A DNA stretch of 54,969 bases from Thermoplasmata archaeon (GCA_022750415.1 JAKIVT010000004.1:1-54969); one strand, 5' to 3'; shown: positions 28,992 through 53,834, counted from the stretch's first letter. Numbers and translations are program-made. Notes: generated from the sequence alone by a model not told the origin.

Positions 28992-29191
28992 CGGGCGCGC
29001 CCGGTTCGGAACTTCCTCGGAAGCTCCGTTCGGTCCGGAGGCCCTTCGCGAGGGATTCCCGTCCCGTCGGTGGGATCGGGCTCCGTCGTCCCGAAACCCC
29101 GCGCGTTCGGGAGCGGGCCGGTTCCCTTCCCCCAACGGATGCGAGCGACCCTCCCCATCGAAGGCACGGTCCACCCCGGGGGCCGCGACCC

Positions 29192-30442: not shown

Positions 30443-30512
30443 GGCGTTCGAGGGGCTCGGGACCGATGCGGATTCGCGCCACAACGTTCTTGAAAGGCGG
30501 GACCGTTCTCCG

Positions 30513-30974: not shown

Positions 30975-30992
30975 CCCGAACGGAGGCGCGCG

Positions 30993-32195: not shown

Positions 32196-32229
32196 GTCTC
32201 GACGACGCGTGGGGGCCGGACCGCCCGAG

Positions 32230-32676
32230 CTAGGTTTCGTCCCGGAGGCGAGCGAGGAGTTTGCGAAGCTCCGAGGGTTGGAGCGGCTTCGTGAGGACGT
32301 GGTACGCGCCCGCTTTGACGAGCTCCCGGACCCTCGGGTCGTCCGGCGGGTTGCCGCTGCACACGATGAGCTTCAACTGCGGCTTCCGCGCCATCATGTA
32401 CCGGGCCGCCTCGAGCCCTCCGTCGAGGGGGGAGGGCGAGGCCGCCAGGAACCCGAAGAATCCGTCGCCCGCGCTCCGCACCGGTGTGCCGAGGGGGAGC
32501 GTGATGTCCGCGAAGACGACGTCCGGGTGGTCCTGCTCAAACCGCTCGATCGCCTTGCTCGCGGTCTCCGCCTCCGCAATCGCCTCGTCGGCGACCCCGC
32601 CGGACTTCAGGGTCTGGCGAATCGCCAGACGGACCACCGGCGAGTCTTCGACAATCAGGAACCGGGGTGTCGGCAT
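32230..32676 (-). CDS. Single-domain response regulator with loop insertion
   Basis: LIVEDS, VVFADITLP, IVCSG, LTKP. Confidence 0.88.
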   Translation of the reverse strand: MPTPRFLIVEDSPVVRLAIRQTLKSGGVADEAIAEAETASKAIERFEQDHPDVVFADITLPLGTPVRSAGDGFFGFLAASPSPLDGGLEAARYMMARKPQLKLIVCSGNPPDDPRVRELVKAGAYHVLTKPLQPSELRKLLARLRDET

Positions 32677-32820
32677 CCACTCTGGACGGCGACCCTCCCC
32701 GTGGTCGTCGTCGGATTCGAATGCTCGGCCGGGCGGATAAACCCTTTCGGGTGGCCGGTGGGGTACCGCGCGATCCCGGCAGGCCCCGGGCGGGGGTGGG
32801 TCCGTGCCCGGGACCCTCGC

Positions 32821-34350: not shown

Positions 34351-34503
34351 GGCCCGAAACGTCGGGGGCTGATCCGAGCCCTCTGGGTGAAATTGGGGGT
34401 CCCTAGGGTATTAGGGTGTCGTTTGGAGGGTGCGACGCACCCGTCGGCAGCTAGGGTCTGAAACCGGCGTGCCTCGGGCGGGATTCCTGGGGGAGCGCCC
34501 GCC

Positions 34504-34926
34504 CTACGGGCGGGCCCGCATCCGGTTGCCCTTCGGGTTGTGTTCGACCTCGGCGAGGCCGAGCTTTTCGAGGACCGGAGGGACGTAGTTTCCAAATCGG
34601 CCACGGAGGCCTTTCTTGAGGCCGTACCAGCCACCGACGGGGTTCTTCGGGGACCGACCCCAGGCTTCCACGGTCCCGTCGGCCGCGGGTTTCTGTTCGT
34701 CGGCGCTCCCGAGGGGCATCCAGTCGCCGTGCCTCTTCAACGCGGCGGCGAGGTCGTCGATGCAGCGCAGCTGGTACCGGAGCTCGGTATTGCCGACTTG
34801 GACGACGAGGGCGGGCGGGTCGAGGCTCGGATCCCGGAAGGCGACGAATTCGGAGGCACCGCTCGGGGTCTTGAGGGTCCAGGGGTGCTCGCGGGTCCCT
34901 TCGCTGGCCGGCTTTCCCTCTCCCAT
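34504..34926 (-). CDS. Conserved hypothetical protein (DUF6855-like, from memory)
   Basis: GTREHPWTLKTP...GDWMPLGSADEQK...TVEAWGRS...GGWYGL...RGRFG...NRMRA. Confidence 0.7.
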   Translation of the reverse strand: MGEGKPASEGTREHPWTLKTPSGASEFVAFRDPSLDPPALVVQVGNTELRYQLRCIDDLAAALKRHGDWMPLGSADEQKPAADGTVEAWGRSPKNPVGGWYGLKKGLRGRFGNYVPPVLEKLGLAEVEHNPKGNRMRARP

Positions 34927-41488: not shown

Positions 41489-42022
41489 TCACTTCGGGGG
41501 ACGATCCTGGATTCGGCCGGCATCGTGCGCCCATCGGATCCAATCGTACACCGGCGCGTCGACATCGATCTGCCAGAGGAGGGCGTTGCACTCACCGAGG
41601 TGCTGGAGTTCCTCCTCAACCAGATGCCAGAGGACCTCCCGAATCGGGATCGAGCAATCATGGTCCGACCCGTGCCCCTCGGGCCTCGCGATCGTGCGAC
41701 CGAGGTCGGCCTCGTGCAGCCCGACCATGAACCGCTGGACGTGGACCTGGAGGTACGTCTCGAACTCCTTCAACTGGGCGACGGTGGGCGGCTCTCCCGT
41801 GTCGGGCTCCGGGGGGGGGAAGGCTTCCGGAGAGCAGTTCCGTATCCAGAAGTACAGCGCCCCCTGGGAGTGCGCCAGGATGTCGAGGAGCGAGGGGTAC
41901 GACGCTCCTCGGTCGCGGGAGAGCTCCGCAGTCGGAAGCTTCGCGAACGTATCGAAGTATCCACGGCGGGCGACGGAAAGATAGGTGAACCAACGCTGCA
42001 GGGTTTCCAGCTCAGCGACCAT
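41489..42022 (-). CDS. DinB/YfiT-family metal-binding protein
   Basis: SLLDILAH...YFWI; LWHLVEEELQHLGE. Confidence 0.85.
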   Translation of the reverse strand: MVAELETLQRWFTYLSVARRGYFDTFAKLPTAELSRDRGASYPSLLDILAHSQGALYFWIRNCSPEAFPPPEPDTGEPPTVAQLKEFETYLQVHVQRFMVGLHEADLGRTIARPEGHGSDHDCSIPIREVLWHLVEEELQHLGECNALLWQIDVDAPVYDWIRWAHDAGRIQDRPPK

Positions 42023-42627
42023 GAGAGTCCACTGTCCGATGCGGGTCGCACCGTACTCCCGCCTAAAGGGGAATTTGTACGAACTTGAGGCCCTGACCAG
42101 CCCCCACGAGTAGGGCGCCCGCCCACCCGGGAACCACTTCGGTTACCCGGCCCGCAGGCACCCTCACGGCGTAGCCCCTCCTCGGGGCTTGGATACCGGC
42201 CGCGGAGCGGGTTCGCGGGCCGCCGTCCACCGGCGCGGGCTAACGCCGAGGCCGGCGCGGGCAGAACCTCGTAGCGGAGCGCCGCCATTCAGGACTGGAA
42301 CATCCGACACGCTTTCAACGCCAACGTTCTTCACATCGCGTACCGTCAGGGCGTAGGCGTTCCCGTGGTCAAGCATGGCTGCCGGCAAGGCGGCTGAAAC
42401 AAGGATTCTGGCTCCGAGGGCGGAATCACCCCCGGAATGTTCGCGAGGGTGACCGTGGACGGGCGACATTCACGAAGGCCGCGCGCGGTCGATGACCGAC
42501 CGCGAGTGGCCTGCGGGTCGCGCGAGATGACGCCCACCGCCACCTTAGGAAACCCACCCCTTGCTGAACGGCTGCTCCGGCGCGGAACTCCATCCCAAGC
42601 GGCTGCAGACGGGCAGGCAATCGGAGC

Positions 42628-42639
42628 TAGCCCCGGGCG
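42628..42639 (-). repeat. Degenerate tRNA-Gln 3'-end copy
   Basis: + strand TAGCCCCGGGCG, 11/12 to TAGCCCCGAGCG at 52205. Confidence 0.45.
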
Positions 42640-42654
42640 AAGCTGGAAGGAGAG

Positions 42655-42676
42655 CATGAGTCATATATGGGACATG
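42655..42676 (+). promoter_or_regulatory. Imperfect palindrome over TATA-like element upstream of the MNT gene
   Basis: CATGAGTCATATATGGGACATG, 16/22 self-complementary, centred on CATATATG about 30 bp before ATG 42699. Confidence 0.5.
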
Positions 42677-42698
42677 ATGTCTGTAAGTGATACAATCA

Positions 42699-43286
42699 AT
42701 GCGTTTCCATCGTTCGCTCGACCTGGTGCTCTCAGGCCCGACCCACCTGCGGGTCCTCCGCGCGCTCTGGAAGAATTCTACCCGACGGTTGACCGGACGC
42801 GAAGTTGCACGGGAGGCAAACGTCTCGACCGCTCAGACCGCCCGGGTGCTGAATGACCTGCAAGATTCAGGCATCGCACGTTCGGAAGCCGCCGGCAAGG
42901 CGTTCACCTGGCGATGGAACCAGGACCATGTCTGGGCAGCCCCGATTCAGCGCCTGTTCGAGGAGGAGGCTCGAATTCCCTCCGACCTATTCCGGGAACT
43001 CGCCCAAATGCTCCACGGGTTGCCGGTCAAGCAGGCGGCCTTGTTCGGGTCAATCCCACGGAGTCAAGAGCGTGGCGACAGCGACATCGATCTATTCATC
43101 GAAACTCGAACCGCCGAGTCGGCCGAAATCGTGCGCGACCAGCTCGCCCACCTACGAACAGGCCTGTGGCGGAAGTACGGGAACCCTCTCTCGCCCATCG
43201 TCATGACCACCTCGGAAGTCCGACGGAGTGCGAACACCGAACTTCTCAAGGCAATCCAACGAGAGGGAATTCTCATCGAAATCTAG
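42699..43286 (+). CDS. wHTH - minimal nucleotidyltransferase (MNT) antitoxin-like protein
   Basis: HTH LTGREVAREANVS...LNDLQDSGI; MNT motif LFGSIPR...DSDIDLFI. Confidence 0.88.
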   Translation: MRFHRSLDLVLSGPTHLRVLRALWKNSTRRLTGREVAREANVSTAQTARVLNDLQDSGIARSEAAGKAFTWRWNQDHVWAAPIQRLFEEEARIPSDLFRELAQMLHGLPVKQAALFGSIPRSQERGDSDIDLFIETRTAESAEIVRDQLAHLRTGLWRKYGNPLSPIVMTTSEVRRSANTELLKAIQREGILIEI

Positions 43287-43294
43287 GTGCATCG

Positions 43295-43717
43295 ATGGCT
43301 CGAGTCAGAAATCTCCCGAAGAGTCGATCCGCCGTTTACCTGAGCCGAGCTCGGCAGCAGGAGCGGCAGATGGCCGTGGCGCTCGAGCATCATCGATGGG
43401 AGGCGGTCGGTCTCTGCGCGGTCCATCTCACCATTGCGTCGGTCGATGCCGTCACTTGCGCAAAACTCGGCCAAGTTTGGAGCGGGGAGGATCACGGGGG
43501 CGTTGTAGACCTTCTCCGAGAAACCGGCGTGGCAGGCGTCGAAGTGACGTCTCGTCAGGTCGCCTCAATCATGGAGTCGAAAACTCGGGTGGAGTATGGC
43601 GCCGAGCCAGCGTCCGGCCCACGGGCCACCGACATGGGAAAGCGGGCGAAACGCGTCTTCGAGTGGGCGGTCGCCACCCTCGGGTCCGAGGATACAGACC
43701 GATCCGACAGGCATTGA
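43295..43717 (+). CDS. HEPN-domain protein (MNT partner)
   Basis: YLSRA...AVH...DA...G...DH...LL...KTRVEY...AKRVFEWA helical HEPN-like pattern; 8 bp after MNT. Confidence 0.78.
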   Translation: MARVRNLPKSRSAVYLSRARQQERQMAVALEHHRWEAVGLCAVHLTIASVDAVTCAKLGQVWSGEDHGGVVDLLRETGVAGVEVTSRQVASIMESKTRVEYGAEPASGPRATDMGKRAKRVFEWAVATLGSEDTDRSDRH

Positions 43718-43794
43718 TCGTGAAGGGCGAGCGACCGGCGGCTCGTCGTGGGTCGACGCGCGGCGTCGGGGCCTCGTCGCACGCTGTTGAGATC

Positions 43795-43813
43795 TAGTCC
43801 CGATCGGATTCAA
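43795..43813 (-). repeat. tRNA-Gln 3'-end copy
   Basis: TAGTCCCGATCGGATTCAA, 16/19 to 52205-52223. Confidence 0.7.
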
Positions 43814-44005
43814 GTCGTGGCGGGGGATGCCCCGCGATGGTCCGGGTCGGGACCTCCCTCCGAACGGTCCTTCGGTGGGGGATCACCGGGTCGAACTACC
43901 TCGGCTGGAAGGAGGCGAAACCGGCGCTCCGCCACCTCATGACAGGGCGCGGTCGAACACGCGGCGGGCGCAGACGTCGCCCCCGCTCGGCGGCTGGACG
44001 CTGTG

Positions 44006-44836
44006 CTAGCTGGAGCGTTGCGGCGAAGTCCAGACGACATCGTCGAACGACCGTCGGAATCCAATCCGATGGTAGAGGGGGAGCCCCATCGGGCTCGCCT
44101 GAAGGCAGGATTCCCGACACCCTACCGAGACGGCATCGGTGAGCGAGGCCACGGTCAGGGCGCGGGCTTGTCCCTGTCGTCGATGGGAGGGCAAGGTCGC
44201 CACGGCATAGATTCCGCCGAAGTAGGCTCCGGGAAGGAGCATGGAACAGGCCACGGGTGTCTGCCCCTCCCACGCGATGTAGCATCGCAGTGGCGCGAGA
44301 CGATGGAAGGGCACCTCGAAGAGCTCCGGGGGCGGAAGAAACTCCGATCCCCGGGCGAGGACGTCCGCGAACTGTTTCGACTCCTCGGGAGACGTTACCG
44401 CTCTCACGAGATGCCGGGCACCCACGTCCGCGCCACCGACCAGGGGAATCGGAACGGTCAGCGCCGGGCGGGACTCGACCTCGGTGAGGCCGGCTTCCTC
44501 TGCGGCGCCGGCCAAGGTCGGCAGGAGCGACTGGTCCCCTTCCAGCCTCCAGCGCTGCGGCCGCTCTCGAAAGAACTCCGCCGCCCGCTCCACGGTCCGG
44601 CGGGGGTCGCTGGGAGGGGTCGTGACGAAGGCCACATTGAGTTCGGTGAGGGCGCTCCCCGAGTCGATGAGCAAGAGTTCGCGGTCCTCCCGTGTGCGGC
44701 CGTGAGGAAAACCCTCGGCGAACCGCCGATAGGCCGCCCGGATGTTGCCGAGCGCCTCCATCGACCCAAGGCCCGGCCGGAGCACCCCTCGGTCCCTCTC
44801 TCGGCTTCCGATTGGGTCTCGCGTGCCCAGGGCCAA
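44006..44836 (-). CDS. GNAT-family acetyltransferase
   Basis: GIYAVATLPSHRRQGQA, LQASPMGLPLYHRIGF; start TTG 44836 or ATG 44761. Confidence 0.9.
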   Translation of the reverse strand: MALGTRDPIGSRERDRGVLRPGLGSMEALGNIRAAYRRFAEGFPHGRTREDRELLLIDSGSALTELNVAFVTTPPSDPRRTVERAAEFFRERPQRWRLEGDQSLLPTLAGAAEEAGLTEVESRPALTVPIPLVGGADVGARHLVRAVTSPEESKQFADVLARGSEFLPPPELFEVPFHRLAPLRCYIAWEGQTPVACSMLLPGAYFGGIYAVATLPSHRRQGQARALTVASLTDAVSVGCRESCLQASPMGLPLYHRIGFRRSFDDVVWTSPQRSS

Positions 44837-44985
44837 GCCCCGGCAGGTAGAAAGTATGTCGTGAAATAAATCAAGTCGACCCGACGCTCCGGTCCCCCGG
44901 TCGGTTCCCTCCCCTTCGGGGGGACGCCCTCCTCCTCACCGAGGGTTTTACGGTTCGGACACTGTCCAGGGACCGGGTTTCTCGG

Positions 44986-46533
44986 ATGAGCCTCTCGCTG
45001 GATGTGCCCCAAGAGCTCTTGGATTTCCTCGTACGCCCGGGCCCCGCGAGCCTGCTGATCCGGGGCGATTCGGGAACCGGGAAGTCCCTGCTTTCGCTCT
45101 CCCTCCTCAACCTCTTCAACGGCCATCGGACCCTCCTGACCGCGCGCCCCGCGGACGCCGACGTCATGGCCCGCCATTCCGGGGCGACCTCGAGATACGG
45201 AGCGGTCGAAGTGATTTCCTCCGACCGTCCCAACCCTCCGGTCCCGACCGGAATTCGCTCCGACAATGGATTGACCGCCGGGAATCTGTCCGCGTCCGTC
45301 GCGTATCCCCGGTTCTTCGACCTGGCTCTCCGGGCGCTCAGCTCCGCTCCTCCCGCTCTCGTTGTCTTCGACTCGTGGGAGGCCCTCGCGAGTGACCCCG
45401 ACGGGATACCGAACAGGGACACCGGAACGGTTCCGTCGCGGGTCGAGCTCGAGCGCAAACTTTTCTCGGCCTGGACCAAGTCGTCGGCCCACCTGGTCCT
45501 CGTCTCGACCGATCGCGCTCGAAGCCAACTCGACTATCTGGCGGATGCCACCTGCACTCTCGAGCTTTCGGAGCTCGATGAGCGCCCGTTGCGCCTTCTG
45601 AGGTTCTCGAAACTACGCGGACGGTCGGGCCGGTCGATGGAGTACCCATTCACGGTATCGGAGGGGCACTTCCGCTGCTTCGCGATCGCCCCTCACGGGT
45701 ACCCCCTACAAAGCCACCGAACCGACCCCGACCCCGAGCCGACATCCTCGACGATGTGGCCGGGCTCGGCGGAATTCGCGGCGGTCTTCGGCCGACTCCC
45801 CCTCGGGGGTCTCACGCTGATCGAGGCGGACCGGGCGGTGCCGCTCGATGTCGTCCGGATGCTCACCGTGCCGATGATCGCCTCCGCGATCACTTCGCAC
45901 GCGGTCGTCATCATCGCTCCCCCCCCGAGTCTGACCGCCGAGGAACTCTGGAAACCGTTCTCCGATTCGATCTCTCCTGAGGCGTTTGCGGAACAAGTGT
46001 TCGCAGTCGTCACGACGGGGCCGAAAGAGGCCGGACCACCCTGGACCGGCGCGATCCACTCGGCGGAGGCCCCCGGGCCGATGGGGTTCCGGTTCGTGCC
46101 TCCCCGGGAACTGAGCCCCTCCGGACCCGTACATCGCGCCGGTCCGGAAGAATTCGCCGCCCAGCTTCCCGACCTCGAGGCGTTCATCGGTCGCTCCCGG
46201 CAGGATCACGCTCGGTCGCTTTCGATCGGGTACGCCGAGGGGAACCTCGCGATCGGGCGGGCGACGGGATTCCCGATGGACCCGGATTCGTACGCTTCCA
46301 CCCTCCGGGCTTACCTCGTGGGCGCGGGGGCGCACGGGGTGGCGATCGGGCGCCCGGAAGAGCCGCTGTTCGATACGATCCGGAGCTACGCCGGGTTGCA
46401 CCTCAACTTGCGTGCCTACAAGGGTCGGTACATCCTTCACGCGTCCCGGCCGTGGTCTCCGTCCTACGTCCTCGCGATTGCCGAGGACGAGGCGCCGGGG
46501 ATGGGTCCCTACCACTTGATCCCGCTGACGTGA
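44986..46533 (+). CDS. GvpD-like/KaiC-related P-loop ATPase, paralog of 32821-34350
   Basis: LLIRGDSGTGKS, VVFDSWEA, QLDYLAD, KLRG, WPGS...FGRLPLG. Confidence 0.8.
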   Translation: MSLSLDVPQELLDFLVRPGPASLLIRGDSGTGKSLLSLSLLNLFNGHRTLLTARPADADVMARHSGATSRYGAVEVISSDRPNPPVPTGIRSDNGLTAGNLSASVAYPRFFDLALRALSSAPPALVVFDSWEALASDPDGIPNRDTGTVPSRVELERKLFSAWTKSSAHLVLVSTDRARSQLDYLADATCTLELSELDERPLRLLRFSKLRGRSGRSMEYPFTVSEGHFRCFAIAPHGYPLQSHRTDPDPEPTSSTMWPGSAEFAAVFGRLPLGGLTLIEADRAVPLDVVRMLTVPMIASAITSHAVVIIAPPPSLTAEELWKPFSDSISPEAFAEQVFAVVTTGPKEAGPPWTGAIHSAEAPGPMGFRFVPPRELSPSGPVHRAGPEEFAAQLPDLEAFIGRSRQDHARSLSIGYAEGNLAIGRATGFPMDPDSYASTLRAYLVGAGAHGVAIGRPEEPLFDTIRSYAGLHLNLRAYKGRYILHASRPWSPSYVLAIAEDEAPGMGPYHLIPLT

Positions 46534-46994
46534 CTGGGGAGCGGAAAGCGCCCCGGGCGACAGCTCTTCCCAAAGCGACTTCCGACCTGCGCGGGCCCGG
46601 GAGGTAGGGCTCGACGCCATCGTCCTCGCGGGCCGGGCGAGGCGAACGCCGCGTTCCCAGCAGGACGAGGGGCGGGCCGGTCTTTCCCGAAACCGAGAGG
46701 GAATTCGGTCGCAATCACCGGCCCCGGATGCCGAATCTTGGGGCAACCGCGCCCCCAGACGAACCATGGTGCCGGGTGGATTCGTCTGCACCTTCACGAC
46801 AATCCGGATACACGACGAACGGTAGGACCCAATCGAATTCTCGGGAGAGGATCGGGCCGCCCGCCCTCGGCCAAAATCCAAATCGCGAATGGTTTTGCGC
46901 CAGGACCCTTGCCGCCCCGGCTGGAGTCGGAAGGGGTGAAGGGATAGCCGCAATGGAGTTCGAACCCTGACGGGGCGATGCCCCCAGGCGTCCG

Positions 46995-47019
46995 TAGCCC
47001 CGAGCGGGTTCGCCGGCTC
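46995..47019 (-). repeat. tRNA-Gln 3'-end copy with internal deletion
   Basis: TAGCCCCGAGCGGGTTCG (17/18) continuing CCGGCTC, which matches the tRNA after an 11-nt gap. Confidence 0.8.
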
Positions 47020-47258
47020 TTGCCGAGTGACTGGGAACCACTCCTGGCAGGGAGGTCCCTCTTGGACCGCACGCTCCCAGACGGCGTGGTTCTGCCCCCT
47101 CCGAGCCAGTTAGCCAGCCCGGCCCTCCCGAATCGGCCCGGTTGCCGACGGAGAACCATCCGTCCGACCAGCCTCTGCTTCTCCATGCCTCGCTCAATTC
47201 GAATTCAGCGGTGCCTTAATCTCAACTCGAGGCTGGGTACCAGGTTGAGGTGGGTTCG

Positions 47259-47495
47259 ATGGGGTACGGTGAGTACGAGTGGGGCGGCCTGATGAAGGTG
47301 CTCGGAGGGTTCGTCATCCTCGTCGGGATCGGGTTGGCGGGCTACGTGCTGTACCTGAACCGGAACTCCTGGTTGATTGCGTTAGTTCTGTTCGTTGTAT
47401 TCTTGATCCTCGGGGCCATGTTGGTCTCTAAGGGCAGCTACACGCGGAAGCAGAACACTCCGGTGGGGCGCGTCGAGGGCACGACCGACAAGTAG
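47259..47495 (+). CDS. Small two-TM membrane protein
   Basis: KVLGGFVILVGIGLAGYVLYL / WLIALVLFVVFLILGAMLV; GAGGTG upstream; start 47259 or 47292. Confidence 0.72.
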   Translation: MGYGEYEWGGLMKVLGGFVILVGIGLAGYVLYLNRNSWLIALVLFVVFLILGAMLVSKGSYTRKQNTPVGRVEGTTDK

Positions 47496-47673
47496 GGTCC
47501 GGCGTCCAATTTCACCTCCTGGAGCTCCTCAAACTCAACACCTCGGGGGAGGGCCCAACTGGAGACACTGGCGGTCCCGATAGCCAACCTAGTCAAACCG
47601 GCTGACTTTCCAATTTCGGTGTCCCGGTAGGACGGAGGGCGGTGATGGGTTCGCCCCTGTCGGATTCGAACGT

Positions 47674-47691
47674 TAGCCCCGAGCGGATTCG
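47674..47691 (-). repeat. tRNA-Gln 3'-end copy (exact 18 bp)
   Basis: TAGCCCCGAGCGGATTCG identical to 52205-52222; preceded by a second degenerate copy at 47651-47671 (17/21). Confidence 0.9.
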
Positions 47692-48173
47692 TTTGCGGTT
47701 CCCTCCAAAAGGGATACACCACCGCCCGGGGGACGGAACACCAAGGCACCGGCGGGACGACCTGCTTCGCTCAATCCTGAAGGGGCGCAGAACCATCACC
47801 GGCAGCCCGAGCGGGGCGGGCAGCAAGCCGATTCCTGCCCCATCCGGATTCCGGCGCAAGTTGCTGCGCAATCCTATCGTAGAAGTTCGCCGATCCGCCG
47901 GAATCGGAGGTCTCCGGACCCCTGCGCAGCTTTGAGAGGGGGACCCAACTCTCCCCCTCTGCAAGACGAAAAGTTGTCTGACCCGACCGTCGCCCGGTGA
48001 CGGAACGGCTCGTGTCGAGCGCGGACCCGACCCGGTCGCCAGTAACGGACCGGTGGACCTTCTCCCACCGCATGAATCGCCAGTCCGGGGCGAACGCACG
48101 GCGAACGCCACCACTCCGGGGGTCCGAGTTCGATATGGACTCGGACGCCCACTGCGGTGGGTGGACTCCGTGG

Positions 48174-49193
48174 CTATCCTGCGTCGCGGACCCGCTTCAT
48201 CGCTCGGAGGGCCTTTAGCGTGATCCACTTGCTTGGCTTTCCGGGCTCCTCGATTCTGAGCGGGGTAACGCCCTTCCGATACTGGGCGGCCTGTGGCCCG
48301 GAAACGTCCGGATGCAACCGGTCGATTTGCCAGGTTCCATCTGGTCGTCTCTTCTCCGTAAGGAGCTTCAGGGCGGGCTGGAGTCGCCGGTCCCCTGCGA
48401 ACCCGAGTTGAGTAAGTACGTCGAGTCCGACCAGGATATCGTAGTAGTAGTGATTCGGATAGTGCAGTCGGAGCCAAGGGGGGTAAGGTGGCCCTTCGTT
48501 GAAGAGCCGGCGCCGGAGATAGAACTCCGCCCCCTTCGAGATTGCGGCCTCCATCTCGGATGTACGCTTCGACATGGGGAGCGACGCGAATGCAGCGAGT
48601 GGCTCCCAGACGTCCAGTGTTCCGGGCGTCCCGTGGGAACAGTTCCAGCCTCCGTCCTTGCGCTGGTCCTCGAGGAGCCAGTCGTACAACTTGCGAATTC
48701 GGAAGTCGTCGGCGTAGCCGAACTGGGTCATCATTCGGGCCGTGTTCCCGACTACGCAAGCCTCCTCGTGAAAGAAGTTGAACGGGGAGCTGAGCCGGAG
48801 CTTGAACTCGAACAGGAGTTCGGCAATCCGCTTGATCCGCGGGTCCGAGGCGTCGAGGCCGAAGTCGGCGAGGACCAATGCTCTCCAATTCGTGGAGAGG
48901 TACTTCGGGTAGTAGAGGAAGTCAATCCACCCCTTGAGACTCTTCGGCTCACGCAGTTCCCAGAACCCCTTCGGGCCTTGCGTACGGAGCTGGTCGCGGG
49001 CCCATCCGACTCGGGTGACTCTGGCGCGGGTCGCCCGAAGGTCTGGGTCGGATTCCTCGCGTCCGAGCAAGTCGACCAGGGTCGCGGCACGCACGACCGG
49101 CTGACCCTCCTCCAACAGCCACTGGACGACCTTCGCATCGCGATCGCGGTTCGTGGGCCCGAGCTCGACTTTCACTTTGGCGCCCGAATTCAC
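48174..49193 (-). CDS. Prenyltransferase/squalene-cyclase repeat (alpha/alpha barrel) protein
   Basis: QW-like repeats QGPKGFW, QRKDGGWNC, KRRPDGTW; YPKY, YYYDIL, GKPSKWIT; start uncertain. Confidence 0.8.
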   Translation of the reverse strand: MNSGAKVKVELGPTNRDRDAKVVQWLLEEGQPVVRAATLVDLLGREESDPDLRATRARVTRVGWARDQLRTQGPKGFWELREPKSLKGWIDFLYYPKYLSTNWRALVLADFGLDASDPRIKRIAELLFEFKLRLSSPFNFFHEEACVVGNTARMMTQFGYADDFRIRKLYDWLLEDQRKDGGWNCSHGTPGTLDVWEPLAAFASLPMSKRTSEMEAAISKGAEFYLRRRLFNEGPPYPPWLRLHYPNHYYYDILVGLDVLTQLGFAGDRRLQPALKLLTEKRRPDGTWQIDRLHPDVSGPQAAQYRKGVTPLRIEEPGKPSKWITLKALRAMKRVRDAG

Positions 49194-49403
49194 CCCAGTG
49201 TTTCAACTTTCCCCGCGGATCGAGGGTACGGCCAACCTTGCAACACCGGAAGCAGTGTCGGCCCAACGCCGGGTCGTTCTGGAGGCAGACGCGGCGTCCG
49301 ACCTCGATTGTTGACCACGGAGGAGCTTGGGCACGCGCCCAGGGGGCCACTCCCCCGATTTGTCGAGCCCATTCTCCGGGCTTACCTGAGCTCCGCCGAG
49401 GGA

Positions 49404-49420
49404 TAGCCCCGAGCGGATTC
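49404..49420 (-). repeat. tRNA-Gln 3'-end copy (exact 17 bp)
   Basis: TAGCCCCGAGCGGATTC identical to 52205-52221. Confidence 0.9.
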
Positions 49421-49531
49421 ACGGACAAATTCAGGCTGAAGCGGATGGATCCAAGAACCATCTGGCTCGGGGTCGTCTCGGAGAGTCTGGTCGCAAAGCG
49501 TTAAGAAAGTCGCCACCATTGACGCCATGGG

Positions 49532-49741
49532 ATGGTATCGTCGGCAACCACCGTACCCGTCCGCCCGGACACTCTGCGGAAGCTGAAGTCGTACAAGGTA
49601 GGCGATGCCACGTACGACGATGTGCTGAACGAATTGATGGAGGAGGTCCCACCACCCCAGTTTTGGCGGGAACACTATCGGCGTCTTCACGAGGATACCA
49701 GTGTCCCGCTGGCCGAAGTCAGACGCCGCCTGAAACTCTGA
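49532..49741 (+). CDS. RHH-like antitoxin
   Basis: TTVPVRPDTLRKLKSYK...TYDDVLNELM...VPLAEVRRRLKL; TTAAGA about 26 bp upstream; precedes RelE-like gene. Confidence 0.8.
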   Translation: MVSSATTVPVRPDTLRKLKSYKVGDATYDDVLNELMEEVPPPQFWREHYRRLHEDTSVPLAEVRRRLKL

Positions 49742-49744
49742 TCG

Positions 49745-50008
49745 TTGACCGAAGTCTTTCTCCAGGCAAGCGCGGAACGTGAGCTCGCTCGGCTGCCTCG
49801 CCAAATTCAGATCCGCTTCGTCCACACCTTCGTCCTGCTTCTGGACGACCCCCGGCGGCGCCGACCTGGCCTCGACATTCGTCCCCTGAAAGGGGGAAAG
49901 TCGGCCTGGAGGGTGCGGGTAGGGGACTATCGGGGAATCTTCGAGTTGGACGAAGGTCGGGTAACTTTTACCCGGTTCGCGCATCGGTCGAAGGTCTACG
50001 ACCTGTAG
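49745..50008 (+). CDS. RelE/ParE-family toxin
   Basis: SAERELARLP...DIRPLKG...WRVRVGDYRGIF...HRSKVY. Confidence 0.9.
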   Translation: MTEVFLQASAERELARLPRQIQIRFVHTFVLLLDDPRRRRPGLDIRPLKGGKSAWRVRVGDYRGIFELDEGRVTFTRFAHRSKVYDL

Positions 50009-50058
50009 GCTGGGGGCCGCGCGCACGGCTCAGGGACGCGGGCCGCGATTGCGATTAC

Positions 50059-50430
50059 TCAGGGGGTGCCGATGAGGGCGACAAGGACCACCATCCACCT
50101 CGTGCCACGCTTCTGCCAGAGGCGGACGCTCCGCATGGCGAAGGCTCTCTCCCCGATGGCGTAGTCGGTTCTGCAGGCAACGGCGACCGCCGAGCCGAGG
50201 TCCCGGACTACTACCTCGCTGAGCCGAACCGAAGAGAAGGTCTTCCTCCTGGGCGGACGGTGTGCGGCCACGACGGAAGCCTTGAGGCTCACGCTCTGGC
50301 TCTCCGACTGGACGAAGAGGACGTCATCCGCGAGCAGTTCTTCGAAGATATCGCCAGTATCCGGATCCGCGCTGGCGTCGCCTAGACGGAGCTTCTCCTC
50401 TAGGGCAAGCACCTCTTCCTCGATGTTCAT
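50059..50430 (-). CDS. NTF2/SnoaL-like (DUF4440-type) protein
   Basis: EVLALEE...ELLADDVLFV...VRDLGSAVAV...RLWQKRGTRW. Confidence 0.78.
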   Translation of the reverse strand: MNIEEEVLALEEKLRLGDASADPDTGDIFEELLADDVLFVQSESQSVSLKASVVAAHRPPRRKTFSSVRLSEVVVRDLGSAVAVACRTDYAIGERAFAMRSVRLWQKRGTRWMVVLVALIGTP

Positions 50431-50527
50431 TTTGGATCCCCTTCCCCACGGTCGGCCGGACGGGACTCGCAGGGTTCGCGTGGTCATGACTAATTCGGGC
50501 TCGAAGGGAACCCCTGCCGAGCCGGGG

Positions 50528-50543
50528 AGCCCCGAGCGGGACT
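50528..50543 (-). repeat. tRNA-Gln 3'-end copy
   Basis: AGCCCCGAGCGG exact 12 bp; 16 bp identical to the copy at 51390-51405. Confidence 0.75.
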
Positions 50544-50801
50544 ACCCCATCTTTACGACAGAATGGGTATCAATCCCGACGATGGTGCCTTTGTGCGCGG
50601 AACAAGCCACAGAGAAGGGCCGCTCTACTTCGAGTCCGACGCCGGTTGCTTCGTTATCCCGGGCCGGATTCGGCAGCGAATGCCGGCGAACAGCTGGGCG
50701 CCGCCTGAGGCGCGTGAATCCTCATCGGACTGGACCTCGGATTGACTCTCAGATAGACCGCCGGATCGGGGGCGGCCCCGGGCTCAGCAGAGCGACAGGA
50801 G

Positions 50802-51077
50802 CTACTTTGGGAGCCGCCGATACACGCACGACCGAGGTCCAAACCGAATGAATCGCGCTTCCGATCCATCCCAGCGGAAGATGCCCCGGTACGCGCCGAC
50901 CTTCAGGGTCCAGAGTCCACGGCCCCCTTCGAGGGGGTGCGTGTCAAACTCCCCGGGCAGGCGCAGGATGGTCGACCCCTGGAACCGAAGCAGCAGCTGA
51001 TCGAACCTCGTACGGGGCAGGGTCGGAAGTCGGCGGAGCGACGCAAACCCCTCCGGGCTGAGAGTTACCGGGACCAT
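50802..51077 (-). CDS. RelE/ParE-family toxin
   Basis: LRRLP...DTHPLEG...LWTLKVGAYRGIF...FGPRSCVY. Confidence 0.85.
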   Translation of the reverse strand: MVPVTLSPEGFASLRRLPTLPRTRFDQLLLRFQGSTILRLPGEFDTHPLEGGRGLWTLKVGAYRGIFRWDGSEARFIRFGPRSCVYRRLPK

Positions 51078-51296
51078 CTATCGAGCCGGGAGCCCGAGCC
51101 GCCGGCGGGCGGTCCCGTACGAGATCGCGGGACGCGTCAGCTCATGTTCGGCCCACGCGAGAAAGTCTCTCGGCGGGACAGCGTCCATGAACTCTTCCAA
51201 GATTTCAGCGTAAGTCCGACCCCCGGTCTTGTACAACTTGAGGCGACGGGCTGTGGACGTCGGGACCGTGATCGTCGTGGGCGGGTCCGCGAGCAT
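51078..51296 (-). CDS. RHH-like antitoxin
   Basis: TTITVPTSTARRLKLYK.GG.TYAEILEEFMDAVPP...ARRRLGL; homologous to 49532-49741. Confidence 0.8.
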   Translation of the reverse strand: MLADPPTTITVPTSTARRLKLYKTGGRTYAEILEEFMDAVPPRDFLAWAEHELTRPAISYGTARRRLGLPAR

Positions 51297-51303
51297 GCCA
51301 CCT

Positions 51304-51318
51304 CAATTGGTCCAATTG
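51304..51318. promoter_or_regulatory. Perfect inverted repeat upstream of TA pair (candidate operator)
   Basis: CAATTGG-T-CCAATTG between a minus-strand TTATT element and the antitoxin ATG. Confidence 0.6.
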
Positions 51319-51388
51319 GAATAAGGATTTCTGCAAGTCGCCCTCTGCCAGGAGAGGGCACTGCCCGGGCGGACTGAGCCAGGGAACG

Positions 51389-51406
51389 TAGCCCCGAGCG
51401 GGACTC
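51389..51406 (-). repeat. tRNA-Gln 3'-end copy
   Basis: TAGCCCCGAGCGG exact 13 bp, then GACTC versus ATTC. Confidence 0.8.
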
Positions 51407-51507
51407 ATGCGAATCACGACAGCGTGGGTGCCGTTCCACCTTTCCGGGACGGGCGGTCTATGCTGGTGCGCCCCGTGGCGGAGGGACGAAGGGTTGAAAC
51501 ACTTAAG

Positions 51508-51524
51508 TCTATGGAGCCCATAGA
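51508..51524. promoter_or_regulatory. Perfect inverted repeat upstream of TA pair (candidate operator)
   Basis: TCTATGG-AGC-CCATAGA between TTAAG (51503) and GTG 51532. Confidence 0.6.
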
Positions 51525-51531
51525 TTTCGGC

Positions 51532-51747
51532 GTGCCGACAGACACGATTACGAGCATCCAGGTCCACGAATCCACGAGGCGGCTCCTCGAGAGTCGGAAG
51601 CGAGGTGGAGAGAGCTACGACGACGTGATCCTCGACCTCATCGACCAGGAGCCTACGGAGGCGGAGATTCGAGAGTTCGATCGGAGGATGCGGAAGGGAG
51701 GTCCGGGCATCCCCCTCGAAGAGACACGCAAGCGGCTCGGACTGTAG
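51532..51747 (+). CDS. RHH-like antitoxin
   Basis: TSIQVHESTRRLLESRK.GGESYDDVILDLI...IPLEETRKRLGL; start GTG 51532 (or ATG 51511). Confidence 0.8.
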   Translation: MPTDTITSIQVHESTRRLLESRKRGGESYDDVILDLIDQEPTEAEIREFDRRMRKGGPGIPLEETRKRLGL

Positions 51748-52041
51748 GTGCCCCCGGCGTACAGAGTCGAGCATCGCCCGGCGGCCGAGCGCGAGCTCGA
51801 TCTGCTCCCGCGGGAAACGCAGCTCCGCGTGATCGCGGCCCTCGTGCGACTATTATTTCGACCGATGGGTGGAGACCCGATGCTCGACATCCGACAAGTA
51901 CGAGATGCAGCGGGGATTTGGCGGCTGTCCGTCGCGGGTTGGAGGGTGTTCTACCGCGTGGACGGCCGGGTGGTATCGATTGTAGGCTATCGGCCCCGAA
52001 GTTCCTCCACGTACTCCGACCTCCGAAAGCCTCCCCGATAG
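51748..52041 (+). CDS. RelE/ParE-family toxin
   Basis: YRVEHRPAAERELDLLP...IWRLSVAGWRVFYRV...RPRSSSTY; abuts the antitoxin stop. Confidence 0.85.
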   Translation: MPPAYRVEHRPAAERELDLLPRETQLRVIAALVRLLFRPMGGDPMLDIRQVRDAAGIWRLSVAGWRVFYRVDGRVVSIVGYRPRSSSTYSDLRKPPR

Positions 52042-52204
52042 ACTCGCCCTGCCTGTCAGGGGTACGATGGTCCCGGACATCGATCGGTCGATGGGAGTCT
52101 AACCCGGCACCGTGCCGGTCCGGACAGGCCCTCAAAGGGTTCGAGGTAGGAGAAATGGGGGGCGGGCCTCGAATCTTGCCGACTCGGGCAGATGCGTAGA
52201 CGGG

Positions 52205-52277
52205 TAGCCCCGAGCGGATTCGAACCGCTGTCGCCGGCTCCAAAGGCCAGCATGCTTGGCCACTACACCACGGGGCT
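52205..52277 (-). tRNA. tRNA-Gln(TTG)
   Basis: AGCCCCGTGGTGTAGTGGCCAAGCATGCTGGCCTTTGGAGCCGGCGACAGCGGTTCGAATCCGCTCGGGGCTA: cloverleaf, anticodon loop CTTTGGA, GTTCGAATC T-loop, A1-U72 pair; CCA not encoded. Confidence 0.97.
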
Positions 52278-52367
52278 GCGGCCCGCGACCTCGCCCCAGT
52301 TACTAAAGGAATCTCCCGCCGGTCCGCCGAGCCCACGTTCCAAATACGCCGGGGAGATTCAACTGCT

Positions 52368-53834
52368 GTGCGCCGAACGAAACTCTTCATCACCGTCGGG
52401 CCAGCGAGCGCAACCCCGGCCGTCATCGACCGGATGCTCGGCCTGGGGGTCGACGCGTTCCGCGTCAATTTCTCGCACGGCACCGATGAGGAACATCGGG
52501 CCACCTTGCGGTGGCTCCGGTCCGCGGGCGAACGTTCCGGGCGGGACATCGCAACAGTGGGGGACCTCCAGGGTCCGAAAATTCGAATCGGAGAGATCGC
52601 GGGGGGTGCCGTGCACTTGGACGACGGACAACACTGGACGCTCGACGACTCGAGTCTTCCGGGGGACGCTCGTCGGGTTTCGGTCCCCCACCTGAACCTG
52701 AGGACCGCGGTCCGTGCCGGCGACCCGCTTCTGTTGGGCGACGGCTCCATCGAAATGACGGCGGTCCGGTCGGAAAAGGGCTCGGTACTCGTCGAGGTCC
52801 AGCACGGTGGCGTGGTCTCCTCCCGCGCGGGACTCTTCCTCCCAAGGGCGCACCTCCGGACCGATCTGCTCGAAGGGAAGGACCTCCACGATCTCGAGAT
52901 TGCCCTCTCCGAGGGCGTCGACTTCCTCGCCCTTTCCTTCGTTCGAGCGGCTTCGGAGATCCGGAGCATCCGGACTCGCCTGCAGCGCCTCGGAAAAGGC
53001 GAGGTCGGGCTCATCGCGAAGATCGAGCGGGCCGAAGCGCTCGCGCACATCGACGGCATTCTCGACGCGGCCGACGGGATCATGATCGCGCGGGGGGACC
53101 TCGGCATCGAGGTGCCCCTGGAGCGGATGGCCGTGGAACAGAAGCGCCTAGTCGCCGCCGCGAATGCGGCCCACAAGCCGGTGGTCGTGGCGACGCAGAT
53201 GCTCCTCAGCATGGTCGATTCCCCCCGACCGACTCGGGCGGAAGCGACCGACGTCGCGAACGCGGTGCTGGATGGGGCAGATGCGGTGATGTTGAGCGAG
53301 GAAAGCGCGGTGGGCCGATTCCCCGTCGAATCGGTGGCGTGGCTCGACCGAATCTGTCGGTCCACCGAGGAGGCGGTCAACGCCGGGACGTTGCAAATCC
53401 CTCGGCGACCGGACGGGACGCGCTCCCAGGATTACGCCGTCGCGGATGCGGCGGTCCGGCTCTCGAACGAGGTGGGAGCCTTGGCCATCGTCACGCCGAC
53501 TCGGTCGGGTCGAACGGCGCGCCTCGTGGCCGCCCGGCGCCCCGCGGCCCCCATCCTGGCCGTCTCCGCCGAGCTCGCGACACGGCGCCGGCTCGCCCTC
53601 TCGTGGGGCGTGGAGGCCCGGGCCTGCCCGTCCGACCTCTCGCTGGATCAGATGCGCGCGCTGGCCGAACAGCTCGTGGCGCAACGGGAGGGAGGGAAAG
53701 GCGGGGGCCAGATCGTCCTCACGGCTGGGTATCCGTTGGAGGGCCGCCCGACGAACCTCGTGACAGTCCTCTCGATGGGGCGGAGCCGCGGTTCGACGCG
53801 ACGAGGACGATCCCCGGAAGCAGTGCCAGACTGA
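52368..53834 (+). CDS. pyk: Pyruvate kinase
   Basis: RRTKLFITVGPAS, RVNFSHG, DLQGPKIR, IAKIER, IMIARGDLG, ATQML, PTRAE, DAVMLSEE. Confidence 0.97.
   Translation: MRRTKLFITVGPASATPAVIDRMLGLGVDAFRVNFSHGTDEEHRATLRWLRSAGERSGRDIATVGDLQGPKIRIGEIAGGAVHLDDGQHWTLDDSSLPGDARRVSVPHLNLRTAVRAGDPLLLGDGSIEMTAVRSEKGSVLVEVQHGGVVSSRAGLFLPRAHLRTDLLEGKDLHDLEIALSEGVDFLALSFVRAASEIRSIRTRLQRLGKGEVGLIAKIERAEALAHIDGILDAADGIMIARGDLGIEVPLERMAVEQKRLVAAANAAHKPVVVATQMLLSMVDSPRPTRAEATDVANAVLDGADAVMLSEESAVGRFPVESVAWLDRICRSTEEAVNAGTLQIPRRPDGTRSQDYAVADAAVRLSNEVGALAIVTPTRSGRTARLVAARRPAAPILAVSAELATRRRLALSWGVEARACPSDLSLDQMRALAEQLVAQREGGKGGGQIVLTAGYPLEGRPTNLVTVLSMGRSRGSTRRGRSPEAVPD

What the first reader, a model, noticed from the sequence alone, without database searches (positions are those of the whole stretch)
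42628..52277. Integrase-less cassette array punctuated by tRNA-Gln 3'-end repeats
Seen: the last 12-19 nt of tRNA-Gln (+ strand TAGCCCCGAGCGGATTCG) recur in the same orientation at 51389, 50528, 49404 (17/17), 47674 (18/18), 46995 (17/18), 43795 (16/19) and 42628 (11/12). All copies are intergenic, and they fall about 0.8, 0.9, 1.1, 1.7, 0.7, 3.2 and 1.2 kb apart. Each interval holds a self-contained unit in either orientation: antitoxin-RelE; RelE-antitoxin; antitoxin-RelE plus NTF2-like; prenyltransferase-fold; 2-TM protein; GNAT plus GvpD-like ATPase; MNT-HEPN. Known: tyrosine integrases duplicate tRNA 3' ends (T-arm plus acceptor strand) as att sites, but such elements usually carry their own integrase and are larger. 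TA pairs, GNATs and NTF2-like genes are typical integron cassette cargo. Inference: this is an integron-like gene-capture platform that uses the tRNA as the insertion site, with non-autonomous mini-cassettes moved by a recombinase encoded elsewhere.
Basis: partly seen in the sequence, partly recalled or inferred. Interest (0 to 1): 0.88.

Follow-up and report, generated by a model that had tools for sequence, protein, structure and literature searches.

The report
Integrase-less cassette array behind archaeal tRNA-Gln
Seven small gene modules, mostly toxin-antitoxin pairs, lie in a row behind a glutamine tRNA gene of an uncultured soil archaeon, each bounded by a copy of the tRNA's end, and related genomes hold the same modules in a different order, so they behave as shuffled cassettes that must borrow their recombinase from elsewhere.

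Summary
The 12-nt core of the tRNA-Gln(UUG) 3' end occurs 8 times in the 2.0-Mb genome, and 6 of these lie in one orientation within 5.2 kb of the tRNA. A 15/18 copy and a weak eighth copy extend the array to 42.6 kb. The intervals hold self-contained cargo and no integrase.

It is a tandem array of att-bounded modules made by site-specific recombination at a tRNA gene. That kind is known: accretion of cis-mobilizable elements (CIMEs), Dehalococcoides ssrA islands, tycheposon arrays.

Three results go beyond ordinary decayed islands:
- Modules A and C recur in a sister genome at 78-80% identity. Homology starts at an att core in both and also ends at one for C. Their rank is swapped.
- Non-tRNA att copies across Thermoplasmata assemblies carry conserved flanking arms next to unrelated cargo.
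- An integrase clade in 7 relatives abuts a tRNA-Gln att copy with a different arm. This genome has no homologue.

I read the modules as non-autonomous cassettes recombined in trans. It is not an integron: there is no IntI, no attC folding, and gene orientation is mixed. Mobility today is not shown.

The parts
52203..52277 (-). Intact tRNA-Gln(UUG). Its 3' end is the anchor (attB-like end) of the array.
   Evidence: ARAGORN; Rfam tRNA 60.4 bits.
52205..52222 (+). att core inside the tRNA (discriminator, 3' acceptor strand, start of the T arm), written on the + strand.
51389..51402 (+). att copy 1: 14 nt identical, followed by a 'class 2' right arm.
   Evidence: The same arm type precedes the homologous unit A in L033 and L151.
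50528..50539 (+). att copy 2: the 12-nt core, followed by a class 2 right arm.
49404..49421 (+). att copy 3: 17/18.
   Evidence: Homology with G023 unit C begins here.
47674..47691 (+). att copy 4: 18/18, followed by a class 1 right arm.
47651..47668 (+). Degenerate extra att copy (14/18) exactly 23 nt upstream of copy 4. The same doublet stands before the tRNA in G023.
46995..47012 (+). att copy 5: 17/18.
43795..43812 (+). att copy 6: 15/18. It is preceded by the GAGATC left-arm motif that stands before att copies in other assemblies.
42628..42645 (+). Possible eroded att copy 7: 13/18. Its next bases, AGCTG, resemble the 'class 4' arm. Weak.
51424..52041 (+). Unit A: VapB-like antitoxin (51424-51747) and ParE/RelE toxin (51748-52041).
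   Evidence: Pfam. Homologues are 83% and 78% identical in G023. DNA is 89.7% identical in L151.
50802..51296 (-). Unit B: 72-aa antitoxin (51078-51296) and 91-aa RelE/ParE-like protein (50802-51077).
   Evidence: Weak DUF7557 hit. 37% identical to the toxin of unit C.
49532..50487 (.). Unit C: antitoxin (49532-49741, +), ParE toxin (49745-50008, +) and DUF4440/NTF2-like protein (50059-50487, -).
   Evidence: The whole unit is 78.4% identical to G023 over 1144 nt.
48174..49193 (-). Unit D: 339-aa protein with squalene-hopene-cyclase-like hits below the cut-off.
   Evidence: Four partial paralogues on other contigs.
47250..47495 (+).
   Evidence: 72% identical to an ORF in G023.
44006..46533 (.). 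Unit F: GNAT acetyltransferase (44006-44836, -) and GvpD/KaiC-like P-loop ATPase (44986-46533, +).
42687..43717 (+). Unit G: wHTH-nucleotidyltransferase (42687-43286) and a 140-aa partner (43295-43717) with no family hit.
   Evidence: (PADLOC candidate PDC-M05A).
52368..53834 (+). Pyruvate kinase, the conserved chromosomal flank on the 5' side of the tRNA.
   Evidence: synteny in relatives.

Best explanation
What it is: the region 42.6-52.2 kb is an array of seven small modules, each bounded by attachment-site (att) copies. Repeated tyrosine-recombinase site-specific recombination at the 3' end of tRNA-Gln(UUG) built it.

How the array forms: each insertion restores the tRNA and leaves a 12-18 nt copy of its 3' end at the far side. 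The copies therefore stand as direct repeats between modules.

What the modules are: they carry no recombinase. They look like discrete cassettes made of an att core, conserved flanking arms and one to three genes. The cargo is mostly toxin-antitoxin pairs.

How they move (inferred): an integrase supplied in trans inserts, excises and reorders them. The likely source is autonomous tRNA-Gln-targeting elements such as those seen in other species of the genus. The assembled part of this genome has no cognate integrase, so the array may be at rest now. The toxin-antitoxin cargo would help retain the array.

Shown: the repeats and their enrichment; the cargo; the absence of an integrase; module boundaries at att cores across genomes (start only for A); different module order and neighbours; the conserved arms; the integrase clade next to tRNA-Gln att copies in relatives.

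Inferred: mobilisation in trans; which integrase acts; present-day activity.
For: (1) Enrichment. 6 of the 8 genomic copies of the 12-mer lie here in one orientation. The 18-mer gives 5 matches against 0.29 expected.

(2) No integrase here.
- PF00589 hits only contigs C143 and C39 of this genome, and PF16795 gives none.
- tblastn of three integrases against the window gives a best E of 0.11.

(3) The locus varies among relatives. 8 of 17 relatives' tRNA-Gln loci have 1-4 further copies downstream. 9 have none, and 3 of those were read for about 19 kb.

(4) Shared modules with swapped order.
- Only G023 of the 17 shares cargo.
- Unit C matches from 49401 to 50539 and unit A starts at 51390. C's block begins and ends within 4 nt of att cores; A's begins at one and ends at the toxin's stop, 164 nt (window) and 31 nt (G023) before the next core.
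- The order is tRNA-A-B-C here and tRNA-X-C-A in G023.

(5) Different neighbours elsewhere.
- Unit A is 89.7% identical in L151, starts at an att core there, and has a different left neighbour.
- 3 cassette pairs have both ends within 5 nt of att cores in both genomes. The count is 5 pairs at a tolerance of 35 nt.

(6) Conserved arms. 93 unique non-tRNA copies fall into arm classes next to unrelated cargo. Of these, 39 share core plus ATTCGC and 10 share core plus GRCTA.

(7) Candidate integrase.
- An integrase clade is found in 33 of 121 genus genomes and in 0 contigs of G000.
- In 7 of the 18 loci with 46% identity or more, an att copy with a third arm type lies within about 100 nt of the gene's 3' end; in one of the seven it is the tRNA itself.
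- In 29 held loci (231 kb), integrase homologues occur only next to that arm type.

(8) An independent arrangement. Logan contigs from 2 runs of one study join unit C to the tRNA and skip A and B.

(9) Other tRNAs. Similar integrase-less units lie behind tRNA-Met, Ala, Leu and Val of this genome.
Against: - No circular form, empty site or excision product of this strain was seen. The runs are contigs with small shares, and the C-to-tRNA joint comes from a relative, not from this genome.
- The genome is 90% complete in 219 contigs, so a cognate integrase could be unassembled.
- The identity of shared modules (78-80%) is close to that of the host genomes. Old vertical inheritance with a few rearrangements could give the same picture.
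- The arms of the cassettes differ from the arm next to the integrases, so recognition by that integrase is unproven.
- The held loci around other assemblies' copies are only 8 kb, so integrases further away would be missed.
- The seventh copy is weak.
- The tallies include unpublished genomes (G088 and G110; also G019). No specific claim rests on them.
Confidence: 0.68

Rival explanations
1. Ordinary decayed islands (CIMEs in the strict sense). Each unit is the stump of a larger integrase-bearing element that integrated at tRNA-Gln and then lost everything except addictive or useful genes. The array is now fixed and nothing moves as a mini-unit.
For: - Integrase loss after integration and tandem integration are both described for archaeal elements (passages in PMC8371274) and for bacterial CIMEs (PMC5704250).
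- The identity of shared units is similar to that of the genomes.
- No cognate integrase was found in this genome.
Against: - No integrase remnant was found in any unit.
- The same small units recur starting at the same att core (C also ending at one) but with different rank and neighbours in three assemblies.
- Cassette arms are conserved next to unrelated cargo and differ from the arm next to the integrases. Simple deletion derivatives of those elements should keep that arm.
Confidence: 0.2
2. The modules are moved by the housekeeping XerA recombinase, in the manner of Xer-dependent elements and plasmid dif modules (recalled knowledge). No mobile-element integrase is involved.
For: - Every genome examined has one strong XerA-like PF00589 hit.
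- Most arrays lack any other integrase nearby.
Against: - The sites are copies of a tRNA 3' end in direct orientation, the usual target of mobile-element integrases.
- A dedicated integrase clade abuts exactly this site in 7 relatives.
- No dif site of these archaea was identified or compared here.
Confidence: 0.05
3. A true integron-like platform with a dedicated resident integrase and folded attC-type sites.
For: - The array consists of small cassettes with toxin-antitoxin and single-gene cargo.
- In G014 an integrase gene lies 60 nt from the tRNA itself.
Against: - No integrase lies in or beside this array.
- No consistent hairpin forms at the sites: z-scores run from -2.17 to +0.79 for 7 sites.
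- Genes face both ways.
Confidence: 0.03
4. Chance repeats or misassembly.
For: The genome is a metagenome-assembled genome in 219 contigs.
Against: - 0 of 100 shuffles reach the observed count.
- The same architecture occurs in many independent assemblies.
- A 12-18 nt repeat is shorter than the usual assembly k-mers (my knowledge).
- An independent contig bridges the E/D junction at 47605-47882.
Confidence: 0.01

Closest known systems
Dehalococcoides ssrA genomic islands (McMurdie et al. 2011, PMC3146451; passages read)
   Same: - Several tandem islands lie downstream of one small-RNA gene.
- Each is bounded by a roughly 20-bp direct repeat of its 3' end.
- There is extra conserved sequence beside the repeats.
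- Some islands lack the integration module, and the authors suggested these are cis-mobilizable.
   Different: - Those are bacterial, use a serine recombinase, and are multi-kilobase islands.
- Sixteen of them carry a six-gene integration module.
- Here the host is an archaeon and the likely enzyme is a tyrosine integrase.
- The units are 0.7-3.2 kb and none has an integrase.
CIMEs and accretion in streptococcal ICE/IME tandems (review PMC5704250, passages read; Pavlovic 2004 seen only in its reference list)
   Same: Elements that keep attL and attR but have no integration genes sit in tandem at the 3' end of a tRNA or other gene. They can move with, or through, a neighbour's integrase.
   Different: - CIMEs are defined as decayed ICEs or IMEs.
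- Here the units are the size of one to three genes, have their own conserved arm types, and show no trace of decay from the integrase-bearing elements seen.
Tycheposon arrays in Prochlorococcus islands (preprint 10.1101/2020.12.28.424599; passages read)
   Same: - Insertion is tRNA-targeted and elements are separated only by partial tRNA copies.
- Newer insertions push older ones inwards.
- Degenerate remnants and further partial tRNAs are scattered through the islands.
   Different: Tycheposons carry their own tyrosine recombinase and replication genes. No such genes are found here.
Integrons, including those reported in archaeal assemblies (PMC9668308; search listing only)
   Same: Arrays of small cassettes occur, often holding toxin-antitoxin or single genes. 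Each has its own recombination site, and cassette order varies between genomes.
   Different: - There is no IntI, no attI, no Pc promoter logic and no folded attC.
- The sites are tRNA-derived and genes face both ways.
Tandem and integrase-less integrated elements of archaea (PMC8371274 and PMC6563490; passages read)
   Same: tRNA genes serve as targets, integration at one site can be tandem, and some integrated elements lack an integrase.
   Different: The passages read describe multigene elements (proviruses, plasmids, cryptic elements). They do not describe arrays of cassettes of 1 kb or so with shared arms.
Acinetobacter plasmid dif modules (recalled, from no call)
   Same: Small modules without a recombinase, often toxin-antitoxin pairs, are bounded by recombination sites and found in different contexts.
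   Different: Those sites are XerC/D sites in inverted orientation on plasmids. The sites here are direct tRNA-end repeats on a chromosome.

Membership tests
Tandem array of tRNA-targeting integrative elements (accretion) | An intact tRNA gene at one end, and direct repeats of its 3' part in the same orientation downstream. | tested here: met
Tandem array of tRNA-targeting integrative elements (accretion) | Presence or absence of units varies between related genomes, with breakpoints at the repeats. | tested here: met
Tandem array of tRNA-targeting integrative elements (accretion) | A site-specific integrase for this att site exists. | tested here: inconclusive
   None in the window or in G000. 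A clade abuts tRNA-Gln att copies in 7 of 18 close-homologue loci from relatives. Its activity on these sites is untested.
Cis-mobilizable element (CIME) | Flanked by attL and attR but lacking integration and transfer genes. | tested here: met
Cis-mobilizable element (CIME) | Derived by decay from an ICE or IME. | tested here: not met
   No integrase remnants. The cassette arms differ from the arm next to the integrases. This argues against origin from those elements but does not exclude other ancestors.
Integron | An IntI-type tyrosine recombinase with attI beside the array. | tested here: not met
Integron | attC sites that fold as imperfect hairpins. | tested here: not met
   z-scores of -0.11, -0.12, -2.17, -0.31, -0.41, -1.59 and +0.79 for 7 sites. 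The sites are tRNA-derived.
Integron | Mostly promoterless cassettes in one orientation. | tested here: not met
   Genes lie on both strands and include two-gene toxin-antitoxin pairs.
SSV-type (self-partitioning) archaeal integrase elements | The integrase gene is split by integration, so int fragments overlap the att sites. | tested here: not met
   PF16795 gives no hit in the genome. No integrase similarity at the repeats.
Xer-dependent modules | Bounded by dif-like XerA sites. | not tested
   No dif site of this lineage was identified.
Tycheposon | Own tyrosine recombinase plus replication module. | tested here: not met
   Neither was found in the units.

The most novel reading that the evidence does not exclude
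Soil Thermoplasmata hold a family of minimal, non-autonomous gene cassettes. Each has one to three genes plus a tRNA-Gln-derived recombination site of roughly 45 nt (my estimate) with its own conserved arms. An integrase supplied by unrelated autonomous elements captures, excises and shuffles them at a tRNA gene. This would be a functional archaeal counterpart of the integron that evolved from tRNA-targeting integration. It would extend to other tRNAs of the same genomes.
Probability: 0.4. Interest if true: 0.8.

Novelty: new variant of a known kind. Interest (0 to 1): 0.62.

Why it matters
Little has been described about gene exchange in uncultured soil Thermoplasmata (my impression; no call searched for it). 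If one- to three-gene cassettes with their own conserved att sites are swapped at tRNA genes by borrowed integrases, this would be a simple route for gene capture in archaea. It would also be a natural case of a minimal integrative unit.

It would explain why toxin-antitoxin pairs cluster behind tRNA genes in this genome. It would also give a defined pair of short DNA sites and a candidate integrase that can be tested directly.

If the units prove to be fixed stumps, the locus is still a clear example of a tRNA integration hotspot, but an ordinary one.

Tried and rejected
- **Rfam scan** of 42000-52400 at E up to 1 found only the tRNA and no partial tRNA.
- **First all-tRNA 12-mer scan** was too noisy in this GC-rich genome and timed out. 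It was replaced by the 13-mer same-contig scan.
- **tblastx** of the flank against relatives gave only compositional noise. It was replaced by tblastn of chosen ORFs.
- **Viral contigs:** one exact hit of the 18-mer, inside a long ORF of a 4.5-kb contig. I judged it chance.
- **Own contig C39,** which holds the only non-Xer integrase, shares no stretch of 13 nt or more with any of the 32 tRNAs.
- **PHROGs** on the 9.5-kb integrase-bearing element of G018 named only the two integrases, so its nature (virus or plasmid) stays open.
- **PADLOC** named only the nucleotidyltransferase of unit G.
- **The frame 43228-43797** listed as an ORF is an off-frame read, and the PDB search with it found nothing.
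- **Sequencing runs:** only 4 runs of one study, all kept as contigs with shares of 0.05-0.13. Parts of the array without cover mean nothing. No circular junction could be sought.
- **Supplementary files** of the papers were not opened. They may hold maps of arrays that bear on the novelty claim.

Full report
**Observation**

The window holds one tRNA, tRNA-Gln(UUG), at 52203-52277 on the minus strand (Rfam 60.4 bits). Written on the + strand, its 3' end begins at 52205.

The 18-mer of the finding, with up to 3 mismatches, occurs 5 times in the window against 0.29 expected. 0 of 100 shuffles reach 5. Two further copies, at 51389 and 50528, keep only the first 14 and 12 nt.

In the whole genome (2,000,810 nt, 219 contigs, 68.7% G+C) the exact 12-nt core occurs 8 times.
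- 6 of these lie at 46996-52206 of this contig, all in one orientation.
- The other 2 are one near-identical stretch at two contig ends that reads like coding sequence (read by eye).

Outside this contig only 6 hits with up to 3 mismatches exist in 1.95 Mb on both strands. The 15/18 copy at 43795 is therefore probably real. The copy at 42628 (13/18) is not significant alone.

The spacings are 816, 861, 1124, 1730, 679, 3200 and 1167 nt.

**Cargo**

Pfam, tblastn and PADLOC give the following.

| Unit | Content |
|---|---|
| A | VapB-like antitoxin plus ParE/RelE |
| B | DUF7557-like antitoxin plus a 91-aa protein 37% identical to C's toxin |
| C | antitoxin (49532-49741), ParE and a DUF4440 protein |
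| D | 339-aa protein with cyclase-like hits below the cut-off only |
| E | 81-aa small protein (2-TM claim not tested) |
| F | GNAT plus a GvpD/KaiC-like ATPase |
| G | wHTH-nucleotidyltransferase plus a 140-aa partner with no family hit |

The HEPN call for G's partner is therefore unverified.

No integrase is present.
- PF00589 hits only contigs C143 (XerA-like, E 1.9e-40) and C39 (E 3.8e-17). PF16795 gives nothing.
- tblastn of three integrases against the window gives a best E of 0.11.

**Organism**

Loci from public records that hold the same att sequence are titled Thermoplasmata archaeon assemblies, and one is titled Candidatus Lutacidiplasmatales. Of the 80 rows listed from 94 stretches, 27 are Thermoplasmata or Thermoplasmatota. 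The rest are single hits in unrelated bacteria. Several of these loci share the tRNA and its flank with the window's relatives.

**Relatives**

I read the DNA downstream of tRNA-Gln in 17 genomes of the genus.
- 8 have further same-orientation copies: G023 has 4, G008 has 3, G007, G015 and G020 have 2 each, and G010, G013 and G018 have 1 each.
- 9 have none. For G003, G002 and G012 about 19 kb was read. For the other six only 1-11 kb was available.

Cargo differs almost completely between genomes. tblastn of 17 window proteins found homologues only in G023.

G023 holds unit A (antitoxin 83% and toxin 78% identical), unit C (toxin 80% and DUF4440 77%) and the protein of unit E (72%). At the DNA level:
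- Unit C aligns from 49401 to 50539 (78.4% over 1144 nt).
- Unit A aligns from 51390 to 52042 (79.6%).
- C's block begins and ends within 4 nt of att cores in both genomes. A's block begins at one and ends at the toxin's stop codon, 164 nt (window) and 31 nt (G023) before the next core.
- The order differs: tRNA-A-B-C-D-E-F-G here, and tRNA-X-C-A-Y-(E) in G023.

Unit A recurs again at 89.7% identity in locus L151. It starts at an att core there too and follows a PIN-protein cassette.

An all-against-all comparison of 29 loci found:
- 3 cassette pairs with both ends within 5 nt of att cores in both genomes: unit C; a methyltransferase cassette at 96.4% identity between L118 and L124; a PIN cassette between L151 and L158.
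- 5 such pairs at a tolerance of 35 nt.

**Reads**

Only four runs of one study held parts of the stretch, all as contigs with small shares. Laid on 42000-52400, contigs in two runs join 50421 to 52201 with 101 other letters between.
- This fits unit C standing directly against the tRNA without B and A, in a related population.
- It is a third arrangement, but it is not evidence of excision in this strain.
- One contig bridges the E/D junction at 47605-47882.

**The sites are more than a core**

Across all held Thermoplasmata loci I found 120 unique segments around the core. 27 are the tRNA itself and 93 are not. The non-tRNA copies fall into classes by what follows the core.

| Class | Bases after the core | Notes |
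|---|---|---|
| 1 | ATTCGC..., with a GGGATAC-like motif about 25-30 nt further on | 39 unique copies with exact ATTCGC; window copies 47674 and 46995 resemble it |
| 2 | GRCTA..., with a TGGGTAYC-like motif | 10 unique copies; window copies 51389 and 50527 |
| 3 | Continues as the tRNA for 23-25 nt | |
| 4 | AGCT... | Small class; 3 copies by eye |

- The class 1 consensus aligns with the tRNA beyond the 18-nt identity as far as the anticodon-loop bases. It looks like a diverged copy of the tRNA's 3' half.
- These arms stand next to unrelated cargo in different assemblies.
- The left sides are also patterned. Many copies are preceded by GAGATC-like bases, as the window's 43795 copy is. Others are preceded by a degenerate 23-nt copy of the att site, as at window 47651 and before the tRNA in G023. 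I have no explanation for the 23-nt doublets.
- None of 7 window sites folds better than shuffles in a consistent way.

**A candidate enzyme**

Among five relatives with arrays, only G018 has integrases inside its tRNA-Gln element. One gene ends 43 nt from the distal att copy.

Homologues of this 410-aa protein occur in 33 of 121 genus genomes at E up to 1e-10. That tally includes two unpublished genomes. None occurs in G000.
- Of the 18 returned loci with 46% identity or more, 7 have a tRNA-Gln att copy within about 100 nt of the gene's 3' end. In G014 it is the tRNA itself.
- Those copies carry the class 3 arm.
- 3 of the 7 loci show a further att copy 0.8-1.25 kb beyond.
- The 12 loci with weaker homologues have no such copy, and three of them abut tRNA-Ile.
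- In the 29 array loci (231 kb), integrase homologues appear only in L047 and L152, both next to class 3 arms.

The cassette arms are therefore not simply those of the integrase-bearing elements seen.

**Other tRNAs**

In this genome four other tRNAs have a same-orientation copy of their own 3' end 0.8-3.9 kb downstream. Their units hold the following:
- tRNA-Met: an antitoxin-led pair.
- tRNA-Ala: a ParE pair plus a methyltransferase.
- tRNA-Leu: an NHL/PKD surface protein.
- tRNA-Val: an epimerase-like protein and a hydrolase-AAA protein.

In other assemblies, 28 units of 300-1400 nt were found in 25 loci. Of 20 ORFs tested, 3 are PIN proteins, 3 are RHH antitoxins, 2 are methyltransferases and 12 have no hit.

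**Interpretation**

The array is the product of site-specific recombination at a tRNA gene. That part is secure and is a known kind. I read passages describing:
- tandem ssrA islands with 20-bp repeats in Dehalococcoides (PMC3146451);
- the CIME and accretion concept (PMC5704250);
- tandem tycheposons separated by partial tRNAs (preprint);
- tandem and integrase-less elements in archaea (PMC8371274 and PMC6563490).

What is unusual here:
- the small size of the units;
- the absence of any integrase trace;
- the conserved arm classes;
- the repeated finding that the same cassette has different neighbours, with breakpoints at the cores.

This fits cassettes that are recombined as units by an integrase acting in trans. 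It fits stumps of larger elements less well.

It is not an integron by any defining feature tested.

My searches for a prior description used these terms: cryptic integrated elements; non-autonomous integrative element with tRNA and attachment site; integrons in Archaea; Lutacidiplasmatales. Their listings showed no paper on such cassette arrays in archaea; of the papers listed I read passages only of PMC6563490, PMC8371274, PMC3718332 and PMC5704250. Supplements were not read, and subscription journals are not in the library.

**Limits**

- Activity is not shown.
- The cognate integrase is inferred from relatives.
- The genome is incomplete.
- The divergence of shared cassettes is similar to that of the host genomes.
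- The left edge of the array is uncertain.
- The variable region may reach further left. Window 28261-34507 is absent from G023, whereas the genes on either side are 85-89% identical.

Noticed in passing
window 47651-47691; L033 (oriented) 18128-18168: A degenerate copy of the att site stands exactly 23 nt before a good copy, both here and directly before the tRNA in G023. Similar doublets occur in several other assemblies. The origin is unexplained.
   Followed up: partly
window 28261-34507: A 6.2-kb segment is absent from the sister genome G023, although the genes on both sides are 85-89% identical. It holds a paralogue (32833-34350, minus strand, 33% identical) of the unit F ATPase. This is a second variable patch near the array.
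   Followed up: partly
window 52368-53834: Pyruvate kinase is only 64% identical to that of G023, while genes left of the array are 85-89% identical. The tRNA-proximal flank may itself have been exchanged.
   Followed up: no
G000 contigs C157:2043-2809, C142:3227-4745, C112:31697-35376, C165:23187-27024: Integrase-less units bounded by a copy of the local tRNA's 3' end lie behind tRNA-Met, Ala(CGC), Leu(CAG) and Val(CAC). Two of them hold toxin-antitoxin-type pairs.
   Followed up: partly
L118:2009-2774 and L134:1-766: Two contigs of one public assembly share a 99.7% identical cassette with different left neighbours. This may reflect two array variants in one population.
   Followed up: no
G000 contigs C31:1-400 and C143:56400-56731: Two contig ends overlap in near-identical sequence that reads like coding sequence. 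This is probably an assembly break inside a duplicated or strain-variable gene.
   Followed up: no
L061 (G014:C67): An integrase gene ends 60 nt from the tRNA-Gln gene itself and points towards it. In six other relatives the integrase abuts a non-tRNA att copy (the distal copy of the element in G018, where the tRNA is on the same contig). The clade thus shows two arrangements.
   Followed up: no
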